A DNA stretch of 64,000 bases from an uncultured Candidatus Saccharibacteria bacterium. GTDB taxonomy: Bacteria > Patescibacteriota > Minisyncoccia > Phycocordibacterales > Zambryskibacteraceae. The stretch's first letter is position 1, and the number at the start of each line of letters is the position of its first letter. The translations under genes and the position numbers were made by a program. A model generated the notes under the pieces. It did not search any database. It was not told where the DNA came from and saw nothing but the letters and a program-made list of their open reading frames with translations. Of this stretch, positions 32,191-37,153 are shown piece after piece. The stretch covers positions 133,166 to 197,165 of the forward strand of contig CAYHLZ010000001.1 in NCBI GenBank assembly GCA_964357635.1, written 5' to 3'.

Positions 32191-32445
32191 TTAAGCCTTC
32201 AGGAAGCCTTCTTTTCTCAAGATTTTGACCTTGGCGAGGTGTCCCGACCTATACCCGCCTATATCACCATTTGAGCGAATGACCCTGTGGCAGGGCACTT
32301 TTGGGCTAGTGTTTTTATTCAAAATATTTCCTACTGCCCGTGAGGCCCCTGGATTCCCCGCCCTCTTTGCCACTTCTTTGTATGTCAAAACTTTTCCCTT
32401 CGGGATCTTTGCTACCACCGCATAAACTTTTTCTTTAAAAGTCAT
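32191..32445 (-). CDS. ogt: Methylated-DNA-protein-cysteine methyltransferase, catalytic/DNA-binding domain only (85 aa)
   Basis: 'PCHRVIRSNGDIGGY' active-site Cys motif. The start is taken at 'MTFKEKVYAVV'. The longer ORF start at 32541 would run through a terminator hairpin. Confidence 0.85.
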   Translation of the reverse strand: MTFKEKVYAVVAKIPKGKVLTYKEVAKRAGNPGASRAVGNILNKNTSPKVPCHRVIRSNGDIGGYRSGHLAKVKILRKEGFLKA

Positions 32446-32466
32446 TGGTTTATATATTACACGATA

Positions 32467-32506
32467 TGTATAAAATAAAAGACGCCGTACCCGAAGGTCG
32501 TGCGTC
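32467..32506 (-). terminator. Intrinsic terminator on the minus strand: GACGCACGACCTTCGGGTACGGCGTC followed by TTTTATTTTAT
   Basis: Stem-loop with a UUCG-type loop followed by a U-rich tract when read on the minus strand. It sits at the end of a 650-bp ORF-free region and upstream of ogt. Confidence 0.7.
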
Positions 32507-33000
32507 TGGCTAGCTAGGCGATCAGGGAGTGGAGATTCCACAACGATTTTGTTTGACTGGCGGTGAAGCCTGCCATTCTAGTCGTTGAGGAGGTTCCCCA
32601 ACTACCCTGATGCCCTGCACCCGTTGGCCCTAGTTTTTTAGTCTATGACCAAAGATACCCTTTTTTACCGTTGACACCGGAATGTATGTCTTTGGATCCC
32701 AAGGAATGGGGAATCAACTCTTCTAAGCCATCTGTTTAGTTTTGCAACCAATCGCGGTTATCCTACCCGCGACCCAGGGGCATTTGCCTTTTGTGAGAGT
32801 CTCTTAGGATTAGAGACTATTCTCACTGAGACAATTTTTCGTTGAGTCAATGATACGAGTGACTGCTCGTGTTTAGGATACTCCTTTCGGAGATCCTTTG
32901 AAGGAAGATCGCTCTCCCAATGATTACTGGTATTGAAACCAGAAACAAGGTATTCCTCCCTGTCCCATAACCATTACAGTCTTTAGTACACAGATCTAAC
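32507..33000 (-). ncRNA. Unassigned structured ncRNA candidate (possibly more than one RNA); identity not established
   Basis: There is no ORF of 60 aa or more on either strand across 32446..33113. The segment is packed with stable local hairpins, e.g. GTGAGAGTCTC...GAGACTATTCTCAC, GGATACTCC-TTTC-GGAGATCC and CGCGG...CCGCG. On the minus strand a candidate promoter TTGACA-N16-TAGTAT lies at ~33035..33006. The minus-strand terminator is at 32467..32506. Confidence 0.4.
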
Positions 33001-33113
33001 AGGAAATACTATCAGTTTAACTTTTAGTGTCAATTGACTTTTATCGTTTTTGTGGACTATTTTGTGGATAAATTGTTGATAAAGACCAAAATTTTCGCTA
33101 TTCTTGGCTTCAC

Positions 33114-33185
33114 GGCCCTATCGTCTATCGGCTAGGACGGAGCCTTCTCAAGGCTCAAAGCGGGGTTCGATTCCCCGTAGGGTCA
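33114..33185 (+). tRNA. tRNA-Glu (anticodon CTC), 72 nt, CCA not encoded
   Basis: Cloverleaf: acceptor GGCCCTA/TAGGGTC; anticodon stem GAGCC/GGCTC with loop TTCTCAA; T-arm CGGGG-TTCGATT-CCCCG. Confidence 0.85.
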
Positions 33186-33320
33186 CAAATTGACTTCCCT
33201 ATTTTATTGTCATTGACACGGGCGCCTTTTAAATTCCGAAAAAATTTTGTCCACAATTTTTTCCTAAATTGGGAGATTTTTAAATTAAGATTAAGAAAGA
33301 CTTTTGTGAGGGCTACTTTT

Positions 33321-33650
33321 ATGCGAAAGCGACGAAGACGAGTACAGGTAACCTGTCTCTGTTCGGCTTACGAGTTTCCCCACCGTATCGGTGGAGGACG
33401 CTGTTCTGGAGGTGCTTGGGCCAGAAGCTACATGGAAACTGTCGGCGAGTGTTGCAAGCACTGCGTTGCCAACCGAGGTGCCTCCGAGTGTGACGTGGCA
33501 GATGGTGCCGAAACCATTGCACACTGCGAAGGCTTCAGAGACCACCTTCTCTACCAACCGACCATTCGTCTCCCTGTCAGGGTGGAGACACTTATGGAGA
33601 GACGTCTCTTCTACTACGAGTATGCGGAGCTTGTCTTTGACCGGGCGTAA
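33321..33650 (+). CDS. Hypothetical basic Cys-rich small protein (109 aa) in a GC-rich segment; coding status uncertain (ncRNA is the alternative)
   Basis: ATG preceded by GAGGG at -13. 'MRKRRRRVQVTCLCS...GECCKHCVANRGASECDV...HCEGF'. The stop codon is embedded in a perfect terminator hairpin. Three overlapping ORFs here reflect high local GC content. Confidence 0.35.
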   Translation: MRKRRRRVQVTCLCSAYEFPHRIGGGRCSGGAWARSYMETVGECCKHCVANRGASECDVADGAETIAHCEGFRDHLLYQPTIRLPVRVETLMERRLFYYEYAELVFDRA

Positions 33651-33683
33651 CATGAAGAATGTTACGCCCGACTTCTTTTTGTT
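33643..33683 (+). terminator. Intrinsic terminator GGGCGTAACATgaagaATGTTACGCCC followed by GACTTCTTTTTGTT
   Basis: Perfect 11-bp stem plus a T-tract. Confidence 0.85.
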
Positions 33684-33699
33684 AAGTTATACTTAGCAA

Positions 33700-34365
33700 G
33701 TGAATATAGAAAACAAACCGCTTCGCTACCCTTCAAACGAACTTACAAGTGGCCTGCTCCACCTCGTGGGAGCTCTCTTTGCCATCGTGGTACTAGTAGT
33801 GCTTATTGTTCTTGGTGCACGCTACGGAAACTCTTGGCACGTGGTGGGTTACAGTCTCTACGGTGCAGGACTTATCCTTCTCTACGTGGCGAGCGCCTCT
33901 TACCACCTGATCCCATCCAAATTTGAGCGAGCAAAAGGGATCGCGAGGCATCTTGACCACGCCATGATTTTCGTCCTCATCGCCGCGACTTACACCCCAG
34001 TCACTTTTCTTGCACTTGAGGGTGCGTGGCGCTGGTCGATTTTTGGCACCATCTGGGGACTCGCCATCCTCGGCGTTGCGATAAAACTTTTTCGCATACC
34101 ATTTCATCCCGCACTCTCCACCGCTCTCTACCTCTTCTTGGGCTGGCTTATCGTTCTTGCCATTGCTCCCCTCCGCGCTTCTTTATCTCCCGCAGAACTT
34201 GCTCTTCTCTTTTTTGGCGGTCTTTCTTATACTCTTGGCGTAGTCTTCTTTGCTCTAGATAAAGTGTTGGCGCCGAGAAAACACTTCTGGATGCATGAAA
34301 TTTTTCATGTCTTTGTTCTAGGTGGCAGTACCCTTCACACTATCCTCATGTTTCTCTTGCTCTGA
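33700..34365 (+). CDS. Hemolysin-III / PAQR-family membrane protein
   Basis: Seven-TM protein. His-rich motifs 'ASASYHL', 'HLDHAMIF' and 'HEIFHVFVLGGSTLH' are typical of HlyIII. Confidence 0.85.
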   Translation: MNIENKPLRYPSNELTSGLLHLVGALFAIVVLVVLIVLGARYGNSWHVVGYSLYGAGLILLYVASASYHLIPSKFERAKGIARHLDHAMIFVLIAATYTPVTFLALEGAWRWSIFGTIWGLAILGVAIKLFRIPFHPALSTALYLFLGWLIVLAIAPLRASLSPAELALLFFGGLSYTLGVVFFALDKVLAPRKHFWMHEIFHVFVLGGSTLHTILMFLLL

Positions 34366-34378
34366 TAATTTGTTTTTT

Positions 34379-34909
34379 CTATTGCCCAAACCACTGGTTC
34401 AAAAGAAACCCGACAGCAAACGCAAGTGTCGCAGCAACACCACCGATGAAAAGCGTTCTTAAGGCGGTGAGAGATTTATTTTTTTCTGTGATGTAACCCT
34501 GTATTCCGCCAACTACTAAGAATGCCACAGCAGCGAAGGCAAAAGAAAATATGGGTGTGTGAGTGCTAATGAGTGGAGAAAACGGTGCCACAAGAAATGG
34601 CAGAAGCGGGACAAATCCAACTACGACAAAAGAAGCAAAGGTTGTAAGACCACTGGCCATGGGATTTTTCCAATCAGGGTGTTCGCGGTTGTGCGCCGCC
34701 ACCAGATCGTTTTGTGAACGAGTAGATAGATAGTCAGAAACTCCCATGGAGAAACCATCTGCCACGAGGTTTGCAAACCCTAAAATGATAACAATAAGAG
34801 GACTCAAAGCTGCGCCCATCGCCCCAGCCATGATGGCCAAAGTAGTGATGGCGCCATCAATCCCGCCATAGACAAAGTCCGAGAGGTATTCGTTATCTTT
34901 CCCTAGCAT
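34379..34909 (-). CDS. VIT1/CCC1-family iron/manganese transporter-like membrane protein
   Basis: 'DFVYGGIDGAITTLAIMAGAMGA' is the VIT-family N-terminal motif. Five TM segments. Confidence 0.8.
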   Translation of the reverse strand: MLGKDNEYLSDFVYGGIDGAITTLAIMAGAMGAALSPLIVIILGFANLVADGFSMGVSDYLSTRSQNDLVAAHNREHPDWKNPMASGLTTFASFVVVGFVPLLPFLVAPFSPLISTHTPIFSFAFAAVAFLVVGGIQGYITEKNKSLTALRTLFIGGVAATLAFAVGFLLNQWFGQ

Positions 34910-34928
34910 TGTATATATAGCTTACTAC

Positions 34929-34967
34929 ACAAACAAAAAAGCGGGGGCGTCTTTCAACACCTCCCGC
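34929..34967 (-). terminator. Intrinsic terminator on the minus strand: GCGGGAGGTGTTGAAAGACGCCCCCGC followed by TTTTTTGTTTG
   Basis: Located directly after the stop codon of the basic-protein gene. Confidence 0.8.
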
Positions 34968-34968
34968 T

Positions 34969-35331
34969 TCACACCATGAGCTCAAGCTGTCCTCCCGCTC
35001 CGAGCTTGGAAGGGATGATTCCCTTTTCTTCAACTCGACTGGGTATACCACGGACACGCTTGGAAGCCCTGATAAGGCCACCACGTCGACCGAAGTATGC
35101 ACCGAGTGCAGAGTTGTAAGCTCGACGTACCTTCTTGTCCTTGATGTGGCAATCATTGAGAGCGTTACGTCGCACATCAATGAAAGACATATCGGTATAC
35201 TTCTTGCGGATCTCACCCATCTTCTTGATGATGATCTCCAGAGTCTGTGGATGGACTTTGGCCGAGTGCTTTACTACGGCCTTCTTGATGACAGCTATTT
35301 CAGCGTCTGTGAAGAACGAATTTGAATTCAA
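34969..35331 (-). CDS. Abundantly expressed small basic protein of unknown identity (TTG start, 120 aa); possibly a ribosomal or RNA-binding protein
   Basis: Consensus promoter TTGACA-N18-TATAAT. Perfect SD AAGGAGGTGA 6 nt before the TTG. Own terminator. 'MNSNSFFTDAEIAVIKK...KKVRRAYNSALGAYFGRRGGLIRASKRVRG'. Confidence 0.55.
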   Translation of the reverse strand: MNSNSFFTDAEIAVIKKAVVKHSAKVHPQTLEIIIKKMGEIRKKYTDMSFIDVRRNALNDCHIKDKKVRRAYNSALGAYFGRRGGLIRASKRVRGIPSRVEEKGIIPSKLGAGGQLELMV

Positions 35332-35354
35332 GGTAATCACCTCCTTTCTACCAA

Positions 35355-35388
35355 GTATTATAGTACACAATAGCCTCAATTGTCAAGT
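35355..35388 (-). promoter_or_regulatory. Near-consensus sigma70-type promoter (TTGACA-N18-TATAAT) driving the basic-protein gene
   Basis: The plus strand reads attata at 35357..35362 and tgtcaa at 35381..35386, i.e. TATAAT and TTGACA on the minus strand. Confidence 0.7.
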
Positions 35389-35392
35389 ACTG

Positions 35393-37153
35393 TTAAGAAC
35401 GAGGCGGGGGTGGCGCTTCCCTATCTGGGGCGATGTTGTAGTAGTTAATAAGAAACTTGGCCATTTCTATAAAACTTTCTGTCAGAGTTTCTGATGCGTA
35501 CTTAACGTTCTTGGGATAGTAAGTAAAGAGAAAGACCAGAAACTCTGGATCATATGCCGGGAAGTAACCGAAGAAAGAGTGAAAGTAGCGGTCCTCGTAG
35601 TAACCTCCTCCGCCCGGTTTTGCAATCTGTGCTGTGCCGGTCTTTGCGGCAATAGAATGATGTTCTAGTCGCACGGTGCCGTCGCGAAGAGACCTGTCAA
35701 CAACTTCGGTAAGCATGCGCGATATCTCTGCTGAAGATTCTTCGGACAAGACTCGGACTCTTTCTTCTTCTGTGGGATACGAAATAATTTTGGTTGTGCC
35801 AATTTTATATTTAACCTCTTTTACTAAGTGCGGAGTGATAAGTGTCCCGCCATTGGCCAGAGCCGAAAGAGTTCGCACCATCATGATAGGAGTAAGAGCA
35901 ATACCTTGCCCGAACGAAGCTTGAGCGGGCTCCAGGTCACGATTTGTTTTCAAATTGGAAACCAGAGACTTGCCTTCATTGGGCAGGTCAATGCCGGTAG
36001 TTTCTTCAAGACCGAAGGCAAGCATGGCTTTACTAAACTTCTCGCTTCCCACTCGAGAGACAACGTGAGCTGCTCCGGTGTTTAGTGATTTGGAGAGTAC
36101 TGTCTGCATTGAAATGTACGTGCCGTGCGACTTACCGTCATAATTGCAGAAGTTTCTGGTGTTTAAAGTTATACAACCTGGGTCGTTGTAAGTGGTTCTT
36201 GCTGTGATAGCACCCTCGTTAAGCCCAATGGCAAGAGTCACTGCTTTCAAGATTGAGCCCATCTCATAACGGTCTTCTACTAACTTATTTCTGAAGACTC
36301 CAGCACCACTTTCAGACTGTGGAGAGTTGGGGTTAAAGGTTGGTGTGAGTGCCATGGCATATATCTCTCCAGTATTTGGGTCAATAACTACTCCACCGGT
36401 AAAATCGGAAGAATAAGTTTGAGATACCTTTGCTATCTCTCGTTCAAGAAATGCTTCAACAGAGGGCTCTATGGTCGTTACGATATCCCCTTCCAAACTT
36501 TCATCTTCACTAACCACTTTCTTTATATTTGAGAAGATTTCAGCAAAGAAATTAACAAAAATCCCTTCAGCATCTCTTTTGAGTACCGGCTCAAAAAGGC
36601 TTTCTAGTCCGTAGCGCCCCGCAAGCTCATCTCCACTGTAGCCAACGAGCCCAAGCACATGCGCCGCCGCCGTCTCTCCCGGATAAGCGCGCCATCTTTC
36701 TCCAGAGACAAGAACACCAGGGATTTTAAGAGCCTTTATTTTCTCTGCTGTGCTTGCTTGCAGGCGCCTTGCCAATTCTTCGTAGGGGTCACTAGTCTTC
36801 TTTGCTTTAGCCAAAAATTCTTCTTTATCTATCTCTGTAATGTTTGTAATCTTTGTATATGTTTCTTCCAAATTGCTATTCTCACTCAAAATACTTGGGT
36901 TTATGTGGAGAATGAATCCAGTCTTAATAGATGCTCCTGGGACCAAGCTGCCATTTTTATCTGTGAAGAAAATGGACCCACGGTCAAAATAATTCTCCCC
37001 TGCTAGGTATTGGTCCTCTGCTCTTACTTCGTAACGCTCACTTGTGACAATCTGGACAAAATAAAGTTTTGCTATAAGTAAAAGAGCAAAGATAAGTATA
37101 AAAAGGGAGAGGAGTCGCAGTCGGCCACTATGAGCACTCTTGTGAGCACGCAT
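35393..37153 (-). CDS. ftsI: Penicillin-binding protein 2 / FtsI-type transpeptidase
   Basis: N-terminal TM segment, a PBP dimerisation domain, and a transpeptidase domain with 'SILKAV' (SxxK) and 'KTGTA'. Confidence 0.88.
   Translation of the reverse strand: MRAHKSAHSGRLRLLSLFILIFALLLIAKLYFVQIVTSERYEVRAEDQYLAGENYFDRGSIFFTDKNGSLVPGASIKTGFILHINPSILSENSNLEETYTKITNITEIDKEEFLAKAKKTSDPYEELARRLQASTAEKIKALKIPGVLVSGERWRAYPGETAAAHVLGLVGYSGDELAGRYGLESLFEPVLKRDAEGIFVNFFAEIFSNIKKVVSEDESLEGDIVTTIEPSVEAFLEREIAKVSQTYSSDFTGGVVIDPNTGEIYAMALTPTFNPNSPQSESGAGVFRNKLVEDRYEMGSILKAVTLAIGLNEGAITARTTYNDPGCITLNTRNFCNYDGKSHGTYISMQTVLSKSLNTGAAHVVSRVGSEKFSKAMLAFGLEETTGIDLPNEGKSLVSNLKTNRDLEPAQASFGQGIALTPIMMVRTLSALANGGTLITPHLVKEVKYKIGTTKIISYPTEEERVRVLSEESSAEISRMLTEVVDRSLRDGTVRLEHHSIAAKTGTAQIAKPGGGGYYEDRYFHSFFGYFPAYDPEFLVFLFTYYPKNVKYASETLTESFIEMAKFLINYYNIAPDREAPPPPRS

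What the first reader, a model, noticed from the sequence alone, without database searches (positions are those of the whole stretch)
33186..33700. GC-rich anomalous segment directly 3' of tRNA-Glu: a basic Cys-rich ORF (or ncRNA) terminated by a perfect intrinsic terminator
GC content rises visibly here, and three overlapping ORFs of 100 aa or more appear in different frames, which is typical of GC-rich or structured sequence. The best coding candidate (33321-33650) has a GAGGG SD-like element. Its protein starts MRKRRRRV and contains CxC...CCxHC...C...HC, consistent with a small metal-binding protein. Its stop codon lies inside an 11-bp perfect hairpin followed by CUUCUUUUUGUU. A position immediately downstream of a tRNA 3' end is a classic integration site for mobile DNA, so this could be a horizontally acquired cargo gene, a small metalloprotein, or a structured RNA.
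Basis: seen in the sequence. Interest (0 to 1): 0.55.

Follow-up and report, generated by a model that had tools for sequence, protein, structure and literature searches.

The report
Small zinc-type protein gene, phage-related family
The GC-rich stretch after tRNA-Glu is a real, conserved gene for a 109-residue cysteine-rich (probably zinc-binding) protein; its uncharacterised family occurs in tiny 'candidate phyla' bacteria and in the early genes of many phages, so it is a genuine but functionally unknown gene, not an RNA or a fresh insertion.

Summary
Window 33321-33650 (+) is the most GC-rich 330-nt stretch of the 64 kb. It carries three overlapping ORFs of at least 100 aa and ends in a 12-bp hairpin plus T-run that contains the stop codon.

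Only the 33321 frame is real. It has orthologues in related Minisyncoccia (Patescibacteria) genomes at the same chromosomal place, with dN/dS 0.11-0.14 and substitutions mostly at third codon positions. The other two frames are closed in the orthologues. No Rfam family matches.

The protein belongs to an uncharacterised family: PHROG 5016, no Pfam or NCBIfam model. It has about 245 clusters at 50% identity and matches in 520 phage records, mostly T1-like early regions. The signature is CxC-x2-Y-x-FPHR-x-GGG-x-C followed by CxxC...C...C. A confident AlphaFold model (pLDDT 94.7) matches no solved fold.

I infer a two-site zinc protein with a basic N-terminal arm that acts on DNA or on DNA-processing enzymes. 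Function is not shown. A recent insertion at the tRNA is not supported: no att repeat, no integrase, conserved synteny.

In passing: a conserved, covarying RNA candidate of about 530 nt, with no Rfam match, lies on the minus strand just upstream (about 32473-33000).

The parts
33114..33186 (+). tRNA-Glu (anticodon CTC). This is the upstream neighbour and not part of the gene.
   Evidence: Found by ARAGORN and Rfam tRNA at 53.2 bits. The same tRNA lies 0.6-1.4 kb from the orthologous small gene in L001, L005 and L006, inverted in L006.
33187..33320 (+). Upstream region that travels with the gene, probably its own promoter and 5' UTR. It contains a promoter-like site TTGTCA-17-TAAATT at 33207-33235 and the Shine-Dalgarno GAGGG at 33308-33312.
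   Evidence: Conserved blocks (ATTGACA, TTTTAAATTCCGAAAA, ATCCCCAA-TTTTTT-ACTAAAT, ATTAAGAAAGA, purine-rich SD) are shared with L001, L005 and L006, although the gene upstream differs in each locus. Promoter function is inferred, not shown.
33321..33650 (+). CDS of the 109-aa Cys-rich protein (FPHR-knuckle family, PHROG 5016), stop codon included.
   Evidence: Homologues at 52-79% identity. phrog_5016 match at E=6.9e-18. dN/dS 0.11-0.14, with substitutions by codon position about 25/20/55. It is the only frame open in all orthologues. AF2 model pLDDT 94.7.
33321..33353 (+). Basic N-terminal arm (residues 1-11, MRKRRRRVQVT, net charge +6).
   Evidence: Across the family the arm before the first Cys has a mean net charge of +3.4 and is positive in 89% of 192 members.
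33354..33404 (+). First metal-ligand module (residues 12-28): C12-x-C14-x2-Y17-x-F19-P20-H21-R22-x2-G25-G26-x-C28.
   Evidence: C12, C14, Y17, P20, H21 and C28 are invariant, and F19, R22 and G26 nearly invariant, in 78 diverse members. This module occurs alone, or with a different C-terminal part, in viral loci L040-L045. It is therefore a separable unit. Metal binding itself is inferred.
33453..33527 (+). Second metal-ligand module (residues 45-69): C45-x2-C48 ... C57-D-V-A-x-G-x-E ... C69.
   Evidence: C45, C48 and C57 are invariant and V59, G62 and E64 nearly invariant. C69 is invariant in the 7 close relatives and is the majority residue family-wide.
33582..33644 (+). C-terminal helix (residues 88-108), the variable tail of the family.
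   Evidence: The AF2 model gives a helix at 88-108. The tail is not conserved outside the close relatives. It lacks the acidic ...[IV]PF ending seen in 13 of 214 family members.
33642..33680 (+). Intrinsic terminator: 12-bp stem (33642-33653 / 33659-33670), 5-nt loop, then ACTTCTTTTT. It overlaps the last two codons and the stop (CGG GCG TAA).
   Evidence: Found by the scan. The hairpin base CCGGGCG...CGCCCGG plus T-run is conserved in L001, L005 and L006, while the upper stem and loop differ. This also explains the conserved C-terminal Arg-Ala.

Best explanation
**Shown**
- 33321-33650 (+) is a protein-coding gene under purifying selection. It is conserved at one chromosomal position in related Minisyncoccia (Patescibacteria/CPR) genomes.
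- It has its own conserved upstream region and its own conserved intrinsic terminator, so it is most likely a monocistronic unit.
- Its 109-aa product belongs to an uncharacterised family (PHROG 5016; no Pfam or NCBIfam model). The family is found in CPR chromosomes and, much more often, in the early regions of tailed phages.

**Inferred**
- The protein is cytoplasmic and binds two metal ions, most likely Zn(II).
  - Site 1 is C12, C14, H21 and C28, the 'FPHR knuckle', which also exists as a stand-alone module.
  - Site 2 is C45, C48, C57 and C69.
- The arginine-rich N-terminal arm, together with the metal-stabilised core, contacts nucleic acid, most likely DNA, or a DNA-processing enzyme.
- The protein would then serve as a small accessory or adaptor factor in replication, recombination or DNA modification. 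The variable C-terminal tail would provide the partner contact.
- In a subset of the family the tail ends in an acidic ...D[IV]PF tip like that of bacterial SSB. The window protein lacks this tip.

**My estimates**
- Real gene of this family: 0.95.
- Metal (Zn) binding: 0.7.
- DNA-associated accessory role: 0.35.
For: **Coding**
- There are 6 homologues at 52-79% identity with conservative substitutions.
- dN/dS is 0.11-0.14, dS is saturated, and differences by codon position are about 25/20/55.
- Only this frame stays open (at least 111 codons) in six loci.

**Family**
- All 7 close sequences match phrog_5016, best E=7.6e-20.
- A profile search finds 245 representative clusters at E<1e-3.
- tblastn finds 520 phage records, all annotated 'hypothetical'.

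**Ligands**
- Seven Cys/His are invariant in 78 diverse members.
- The first four occur as a separate module in L041 and L043-L045, and with another C-terminal part in L040 and L042.

**Fold**
- The AF2 model has pLDDT 94.7 and pTM 0.82.

**Own transcription unit**
- The upstream region is conserved regardless of the upstream neighbour.
- The terminator is conserved.

**Link to DNA**
- The N-arm is positive in 89% of members.
- Phage copies sit among early genes, next to DNA methyltransferase and helicase in T1-like phages and next to an exonuclease in a Yuavirus.
- Neighbours in 13 phage and viral loci include UvrD helicases, DNA polymerase A, ERF, PD-(D/E)XK nuclease, thymidylate synthase, ADDT and HMUDK.
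- There is an in-frame fusion to the 5-hmdU DNA kinase helical domain inside a thymidine-hypermodification cassette (L035).
- There is a fusion to a replication-protein-O-like segment (P0035; E=9e-6, below Pfam's cut-off).
- 13 of 214 members end in acidic ...PF, against about 0.4 expected from amino-acid frequencies (my estimate).
Against: - No experiment or annotated homologue gives a function.
- Metal binding rests only on the conserved Cys/His pattern. I could not inspect the model's coordinates, so the assignment of ligands to two sites is indirect.
- An Fe-S cluster is not excluded.
- The fusions are single cases, and one is below Pfam's threshold.
- Phage 'early region' neighbourhoods are rich in DNA-metabolism genes anyway, so the neighbour census has no control.
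- In CPR chromosomes the gene has no conserved partner. Its neighbours are tRNA genes, RNase Y, MetRS, HlyIII and transporters.
- The window protein lacks the SSB-like tip.
- A basic arm would serve RNA binding equally well.
Confidence: 0.5

Rival explanations
1. The segment is a structured non-coding RNA, and its ORFs are by-products of GC-rich, structured sequence.
For: - Three overlapping long ORFs occur in different frames.
- The 386-nt stretch folds better than shuffles, z = -3.4.
- GC is elevated.
Against: - No Rfam family matches at gathering score or at E<=10.
- dN/dS is 0.11-0.14, with most differences at third positions.
- Protein-level homologues reach down to about 30% identity in hundreds of phages, where the DNA is no longer alignable.
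- The two other frames are interrupted in the orthologues.
- Much of the folding signal comes from the terminator hairpin.
Confidence: 0.02
2. The gene is cargo of a mobile element that recently integrated at the 3' end of tRNA-Glu, such as a prophage remnant or genomic island.
For: - The family is predominantly phage-borne.
- The gene has the highest GC, and an atypical GC3, in the window.
- The genes between the MGMT-family gene and the PBP gene differ among related genomes. HlyIII, DUF817, DUF2127, Cu-oxidase and VIT1 come and go.
- In 4 of 7 independent CPR contexts a tRNA gene lies within 1.4 kb.
- A related genome (L031) has tRNA-Glu without the gene in the 7.4 kb held.
Against: - No direct repeat of the tRNA 3' end exists anywhere in the 64 kb, even allowing 3 mismatches.
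- No integrase or other phage gene is nearby.
- The gene, its upstream region and its terminator are conserved at the same place in four genomes whose synonymous sites are saturated.
- The orthologues are also GC-rich relative to their loci. The composition is therefore maintained, not a fading foreign signal.
Confidence: 0.1
3. It is an RNA-binding or ribosome/translation-associated zinc protein of CPR bacteria. Phages would have borrowed it, as they borrow some ribosomal proteins.
For: - The arginine-rich N-terminus and small Cys-rich body resemble zinc-binding ribosomal proteins (general knowledge).
- The gene lies next to tRNA genes in several CPR loci and next to RNase Y in L019.
- High GC3 would fit a highly expressed gene.
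- It lies 320 nt from a large conserved RNA candidate.
Against: - No similarity to any ribosomal-protein family in Pfam or NCBIfam.
- No structural match.
- The phage contexts and the fusions point to DNA metabolism.
- The neighbourhood links to RNA genes are weak statistically; my rough binomial estimate is about 0.015.
Confidence: 0.12
4. It is an Fe-S (redox or oxygen-sensing) protein rather than a zinc protein, for example a WhiB-like regulator.
For: - Seven or eight conserved Cys/His ligands occur in about 60 residues.
- The spacing C28-x16-C45-x2-C48-x8-C57 loosely recalls the C-xn-C-x2-C-x5-C of WhiB-like proteins (my recollection of that family).
Against: - No match to the Whib Pfam family or to any Fe-S family.
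- The first four ligands form a separable module that includes a His, which is typical of structural zinc sites.
- The family occurs in aerobic enterobacterial phages.
Confidence: 0.12

Closest known systems
PHROG 5016 (phage protein family of unknown function)
   Same: The window protein matches residues 3-78 to profile positions 2-74 of 79, E=6.9e-18. All seven close relatives match. The Cys/His pattern and the size (about 75-110 aa) are the same.
   Different: The window copy is chromosomal, in a CPR bacterium, with its own promoter region and terminator. It also has a longer helical C-terminal tail. The phage copies are early genes packed in operons.
Small structural zinc modules (zinc knuckle, zinc ribbon, treble clef)
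   Same: It has short beta-hairpins carrying CxC/CxxC, ligands at helix N-termini, two sets of four ligands, and a small size.
C-terminal tip of bacterial single-stranded-DNA-binding protein (SSB-Ct, ...DDDIPF)
   Same: 13 of 214 family members, including CPR-chromosomal P0157 (...DDWQDVPF) and a short viral form (L045...DDEYPF), end in an acidic stretch plus [IV]PF.
   Different: The window protein ends ...VFDRA and has no such tip. The family has no OB fold. Binding to SSB partners is untested, so the resemblance is a lead from my knowledge of SSB and not a result.
Accessory domains of phage DNA-modification and replication enzymes (5-hmdU DNA kinase, lambda O-like initiators)
   Same: One viral contig fuses the domain in frame to the HMUDK helical domain, within an ADDT / kinase / ThyA-like cassette. 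One protein carries a Phage_rep_O-like segment after it.
   Different: These are single fusions. The window genome has no such enzymes nearby. The papers on thymidine hypermodification that I searched do not mention such a domain.

Membership tests
PHROG 5016 | Significant match to the family HMM over most of its length. | tested here: met
   E=6.9e-18, 65.3 bits, protein residues 3-78 against profile positions 2-74 of 79. All 7 of 7 close relatives match.
FPHR-knuckle family (as defined here from 78 members) | Invariant C-x-C-x2-Y-x2-P-H ... C, followed by C-x2-C ... C. | tested here: met
   C12, C14, Y17, P20, H21, C28, C45, C48 and C57 are all present in the window protein.
FPHR-knuckle family, SSB-tip subgroup | C-terminus ends in acidic residues followed by [IVLC]PF. 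| tested here: not met
   The window protein ends YAELVFDRA. The last two codons are part of the terminator stem.
Known zinc-finger, zinc-ribbon or Fe-S protein families (Pfam, NCBIfam) | Match to a curated family model. | tested here: not met
   There are no Pfam hits at E<=1 for the window protein and none for the long relatives except weak sub-threshold hits. There are no NCBIfam hits.
Any solved protein fold | Structural similarity of a confident model to a PDB chain. | tested here: not met
Metal-binding protein | Bound Zn or Fe-S with tetrahedral Cys/His geometry. | not testable with these tools
   Only the ligand pattern and its conservation are available.
Rfam RNA families (structured ncRNA reading) | Covariance-model match. 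| tested here: not met
   No family matches in 33186-33700 at gathering score or at E<=10.
tRNA-targeted integrative element | Direct repeat of the tRNA 3' end (attL/attR) flanking the insert. | tested here: not met
   The 3' 12-24 nt of tRNA-Glu occur once in 64 kb, even with 3 mismatches allowed.
tRNA-targeted integrative element | Integrase or other mobility genes next to the tRNA. | tested here: not met
   The neighbours are RNR, an MGMT-family gene, HlyIII, VIT1, a 136-aa ORF with no Pfam hit, and PBP.
Anti-phage defence proteins (PADLOC) | Match to a defence-system model. | tested here: not met
   0 of 7 close relatives match at E<=1.
Rho-independent terminator | G+C-rich hairpin followed by a T-run, conserved at the gene end. 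| tested here: met
   A 12-bp stem plus T-run. It is conserved in 4 orthologous loci, with an invariant base and a variable upper stem. Termination itself was not measured.

The most novel reading that the evidence does not exclude
The FPHR-knuckle proteins may be a new two-zinc fold that works as a portable docking module for DNA transactions.

Under this reading:
- The basic arm and first knuckle hold DNA or a DNA enzyme.
- The variable tail recruits or titrates partners. In some members it is an SSB-tip mimic.
- Phages would use the protein early in infection to redirect host replication and repair proteins, or to guide DNA-modifying enzymes such as 5-hmdU kinase.
- Minisyncoccia and other CPR bacteria, which have minimal replication and repair toolkits, would have domesticated a copy as a core chromosomal factor.
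Probability: 0.15. Interest if true: 0.6.

Novelty: new member of a known kind. Interest (0 to 1): 0.4.

Why it matters

What is worth keeping is the family.
- It is widespread: 245 clusters at 50% identity and 520 sequenced phages, including hundreds of therapeutic-candidate Klebsiella phages.
- It has no Pfam model, no annotation and no structural relative, yet its model is very confident.
- It has a sharp signature.
- It is shared between phages of Proteobacteria and the chromosomes of CPR bacteria.

A defined function would annotate many phage early genes at once. It would also add a piece to the poorly known DNA-handling machinery of CPR bacteria.

The neighbouring large structured RNA candidate, which has no Rfam match, may be the more novel object in this stretch.

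Tried and rejected
- **Rfam on the region and on the orthologous loci**: only tRNAs were found.
- **Curated protein libraries:** Pfam, NCBIfam and PADLOC on the protein and its relatives gave nothing.
- **PDB by sequence profile**: only chance-level trypsin hits.
- **Literature:** searches for phrog_5016, the FPHR motif, Drexlerviridae zinc early genes and SSB-tip mimics found nothing relevant. The thymidine-hypermodification paper does not mention such a domain.
- **att-site search:** negative.
- **The search for related loci with the broad alignment A2:** failed because the alignment has no conserved stretch.
- **Metagenome pattern scan for the neighbouring RNA:** 0 hits.
- **RNase P RNA reading of the neighbouring RNA:** I considered it because two motifs look similar by eye. 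No Rfam RNase P model matches at E<=10, and RNAalifold places the 'P4-like' motif in a hairpin loop. I dropped that label.
- **WhiB-like or anti-sigma ZAS readings of the protein:** no model match, and the motifs do not fit.
- **Yuavirus link:** I checked whether the Yuavirus copy sits inside the hypermodification cluster. Its immediate neighbours are not such genes.
- **SSB in the window:** no SSB gene is present for comparing tails.
Full report
**1. Observation**

The window has the make-up of a Patescibacteria (CPR) genome. Its overall GC is 42.7%. An MGMT-family protein identical to the one encoded here is named 'Patescibacteria group bacterium' in NCBI, and the closest relatives of the gene under study come from Minisyncoccia MAGs.

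- tRNA-Glu(CTC) lies at 33114-33186.
- Downstream, 33321-33650 is 55.5% GC. That is the highest value of any 330-nt window in the 64 kb, about +3.1 sd. GC3 is 55.5% against 40.0 +/- 6.3% for 43 long ORFs.
- Three ORFs of at least 100 aa overlap there in different frames.
- A GAGGG lies 8 nt before the ATG at 33321.
- A 12-bp hairpin (33642-33670) followed by ACTTCTTTTT contains the TAA stop.

The only correction is 12 pairs rather than 11.

**2. Coding or RNA**

The 109-aa product has six homologues at 52-79% identity. Their differences are conservative, and the Cys/His positions are invariant.

I compared the gene codon by codon with three orthologous genes fetched with their genomic context.
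- dN/dS is 0.11-0.14.
- Synonymous sites are saturated.
- Differences by codon position run about 25/20/55.

Across six loci only this frame stays open, at 111 or more codons. The +1 frame, open for 114 codons in the window, closes to 38-75 codons. The antisense frame, open for 131 codons in the window, closes to 43-97.

Rfam gives nothing at gathering score or at E<=10. The RNA reading is therefore rejected. The other two ORFs are by-products of a GC-rich coding sequence.

**3. Genomic setting**

In L001, L005 and L006 the order is:
- RNR, then an MGMT-family gene;
- a variable stretch containing tRNA-Glu(CTC);
- the small gene;
- another variable stretch;
- CTP_transf_like, an 86-aa gene, PBP, an FtsL-like gene, RsmH and MraZ.

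The small gene and the tRNA are constant. HlyIII, DUF817, DUF2127, a Cu-oxidase, VIT1 and unnamed ORFs come and go. HlyIII lies upstream of the small gene in L006 and downstream in the window.

About 130 nt upstream of the start codon is conserved whatever the upstream neighbour is. The terminator (CCGGGCG...CGCCCGG plus T-run) is conserved in all four loci and overlaps the last codons. This explains the conserved C-terminal Arg-Ala. The gene therefore looks like an autonomous unit with its own promoter region and terminator.

There is no repeat of the tRNA 3' end in the window and no integrase nearby. The orthologues are also GC-rich relative to their loci, at +1.2 to +1.8 sd, so the composition is maintained rather than a recent foreign signature.

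A recent insertion at the tRNA is not supported. An old acquisition is possible for three reasons.
- The family is mainly viral.
- The surroundings are a variable region.
- In 4 of 7 independent CPR contexts a tRNA gene lies within 1.4 kb. My rough binomial estimate for this is about 0.015.

**4. The family**

- All seven close sequences match PHROG 5016, annotated 'unknown function', with E down to 7.6e-20.
- A profile search of 1.84 billion representatives gives 245 clusters at E<1e-3 and 93 at E<1e-10. Most are 70-130 aa.
- None carries a Pfam domain or an informative name.
- tblastn finds the family in 520 phage records: Klebsiella 354, Pseudomonas 52, Escherichia 30 and others. Most are roughly 50-kb T1-like Drexlerviridae and all matches are annotated 'hypothetical'.
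- In those phages it sits in a run of small early genes upstream of a DNA methyltransferase and a helicase.
- In a Yuavirus it precedes an exonuclease.
- Chromosomal copies occur in Minisyncoccia, Moraniibacteriota, Nomurabacteria and Paceibacteria MAGs, in housekeeping neighbourhoods without phage genes. The genome scan that found them used patterns biased to close relatives, so this is not a census.

**5. Protein anatomy**

- In 78 diverse members C12, C14, Y17, P20, H21, C28, C45, C48 and C57 are invariant. F19, R22, G26, V59, G62 and E64 are nearly invariant. C69 is invariant among close relatives.
- The signature is CxC-x2-Y-x-FPHR-x-GGG-x-C, then CxxC...C(D/E)V...G.E...C.
- Viral contigs encode short proteins with only the first motif (L041, L043-L045) and a variant with a different C-terminal part (L040, L042). 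The first four ligands therefore form a separable unit, and the second four most likely form a second site.
- The arm before the first Cys is basic, with mean charge +3.4 and positive in 89% of members. In the window protein it is MRKRRRRVQVT, +6. The core is acidic.
- AlphaFold2 with the 78-sequence alignment gives pLDDT 94.7 and pTM 0.82. The model has short hairpins and helices at 31-40, 70-78 and 88-108.

**6. Clues to function**

- (a) The basic arm suggests nucleic-acid contact.
- (b) Phage copies lie in replication, recombination and modification modules. A Pfam census of 91 neighbouring ORFs in 13 phage and viral loci lists UvrD helicases, DNA polymerase A, ERF, PD-(D/E)XK nuclease, an Rv2179c-like exonuclease, thymidylate synthase, ADDT and HMUDK. 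There is no control set, so this is only suggestive.
- (c) In L035 the domain is fused in frame to the helical domain of 5-hmdU DNA kinase (PF18723, E=1e-38). The fusion sits inside a cassette of amino-acid:DNA transferase, P-loop kinase and a ThyA-like enzyme, which is a thymidine-hypermodification cluster of the kind described in PMC8989533.
- (d) P0035 carries a replication-protein-O-like segment after the domain, at E=9e-6, below Pfam's cut-off.
- (e) 13 of 214 members end in an acidic stretch plus [IV]PF, for example DDDVPF, LEDIPF and DDWQDVPF. 'PF' is the commonest C-terminal dipeptide in the family, against about 0.4 expected. A short viral form ends DDEYPF. From general knowledge this is the signature of the SSB C-terminal tip that recruits replication and repair proteins. 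The window protein lacks it.

Taken together, I favour a two-zinc, DNA-associated accessory or adaptor protein. I put that mechanism at about 0.35 and metal binding at about 0.7. Rivals are an RNA- or ribosome-associated role and an Fe-S protein.

**7. Verdict**

This is a real gene and a new member of a catalogued but uncharacterised family. It is not an RNA and not a fresh tRNA-site insertion. Interest is moderate: the locus is ordinary, but the family is widespread, sharply defined, structurally unmatched and unannotated.

**8. Seen in passing**

The 670-nt ORF-free gap between the MGMT-family gene and tRNA-Glu is more conserved at the DNA level (77-81% identity) than the protein gene (69-73%). 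No ORF in the gap exceeds 33 aa.

On the minus strand it has these features:
- a promoter-like TTGACA-16-TAGTAT at 33033..33006;
- about 530 nt of sequence;
- an intrinsic terminator at about 32508-32473;
- about 30 nt later, the start of the 82-aa MGMT-family gene.

RNAalifold on five copies predicts 127 pairs in 23 helices.
- 92.5% of cells are paired.
- 18 pairs carry compensatory changes, against 9.1 +/- 2.1 in shuffles (0 of 500 shuffles reach the observed value).
- Slid controls give 1-5 such pairs.

No Rfam family matches at E<=10. L006 keeps only the 3' 160 nt.

This is a candidate large structured RNA, or a very long leader. With only five sequences the support is preliminary.

Noticed in passing
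window ~32473-33000, minus strand (promoter-like site 33033..33006; terminator ~32508-32473): An ORF-free, highly conserved stretch of about 530 nt lies between the MGMT-family gene and tRNA-Glu. DNA identity to L005, L027 and L029 is 77-81%, higher than in the adjacent protein gene. RNAalifold on 5 copies gives 127 pairs, 18 of them with compensatory changes (0 of 500 shuffles reach this; slid controls give 1-5). It has its own terminator, about 30 nt before the MGMT-family start codon. No Rfam match at E<=10. It is a candidate large structured ncRNA or a very long leader.
   Followed up: partly
window 33027-33063: The palindrome GTCAATTGAC gives back-to-back promoter-like sites. On the minus strand, TTGACA-16-TAGTAT faces the RNA candidate. 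On the plus strand, TTGACT-18-TATTTT faces tRNA-Glu. The block GTGTCAATTGACTTTTATCGTTTTTGTGGAC is conserved in L001 and L005.
   Followed up: no
window 32191-32541, minus strand: The 116-aa ORF listed mechanically is probably an 82-aa gene starting at the ATG at 32439. Orthologues are 82-88 aa, and the extra 5' part overlaps the RNA's terminator. The product is only the DNA-binding domain of O6-alkylguanine transferases (PF01035). It is very conserved across Patescibacteria, with 3472 hits at E<=1e-20 and about 70-80% identity among the best 120 listed.
   Followed up: partly
L035:3418-4686 (IMG/VR UViG_3300009194_000377): This is an in-frame fusion of the 5-hmdU DNA kinase helical domain (PF18723) with the FPHR Cys-rich domain. 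It sits in a cassette with an amino-acid:DNA transferase (ADDT), a P-loop kinase and a ThyA-like enzyme, which is a thymidine-hypermodification cluster.
   Followed up: partly
L040, L041, L042, L043, L044, L045 (viral contigs): Short proteins of about 40-70 aa carry only the first motif CxCxxYxFPHRLGGGxC; one of them ends ...DDEYPF. A variant (L040, L042) has a different Cys-rich C-terminal part (FG.G.TE.WG..STH.D...S.CCEA). The FPHR knuckle is therefore a modular unit.
   Followed up: partly
family members P0010-P0019, P0029, P0041, P0053, P0069, P0133, P0157, P0160: Their C-termini end in an acidic stretch plus [IVAC]PF, like the tip of bacterial SSB. 'PF' is the commonest ending in the family, in 13 of 214 members.
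   Followed up: partly
window 33186-37153 compared with L001, L005, L006: The stretch between the MGMT-family gene and the PBP gene is a variable region. HlyIII, VIT1 and a 136-aa ORF without a Pfam hit (34969-35379, minus strand) are found in the window. The relatives instead carry DUF817, DUF2127, a Cu-oxidase, CTP_transf_like and unnamed ORFs. tRNA-Glu is inverted in L006.
   Followed up: partly
L010/L011, L020, L021, L023 (other CPR loci): Chromosomal copies of the family often lie within 0.2-1.4 kb of a tRNA gene (tRNA-Gly GCC, tRNA-Gly TCC, tRNA-Ser). This holds in 4 of 7 independent contexts. It could reflect old integration sites or shared expression; the cause is undecided.
   Followed up: no
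L023:5001-5275: The Paceibacteria copy of the gene contains in-frame stops and a frameshift. It is either a pseudogene or an assembly error.
   Followed up: no
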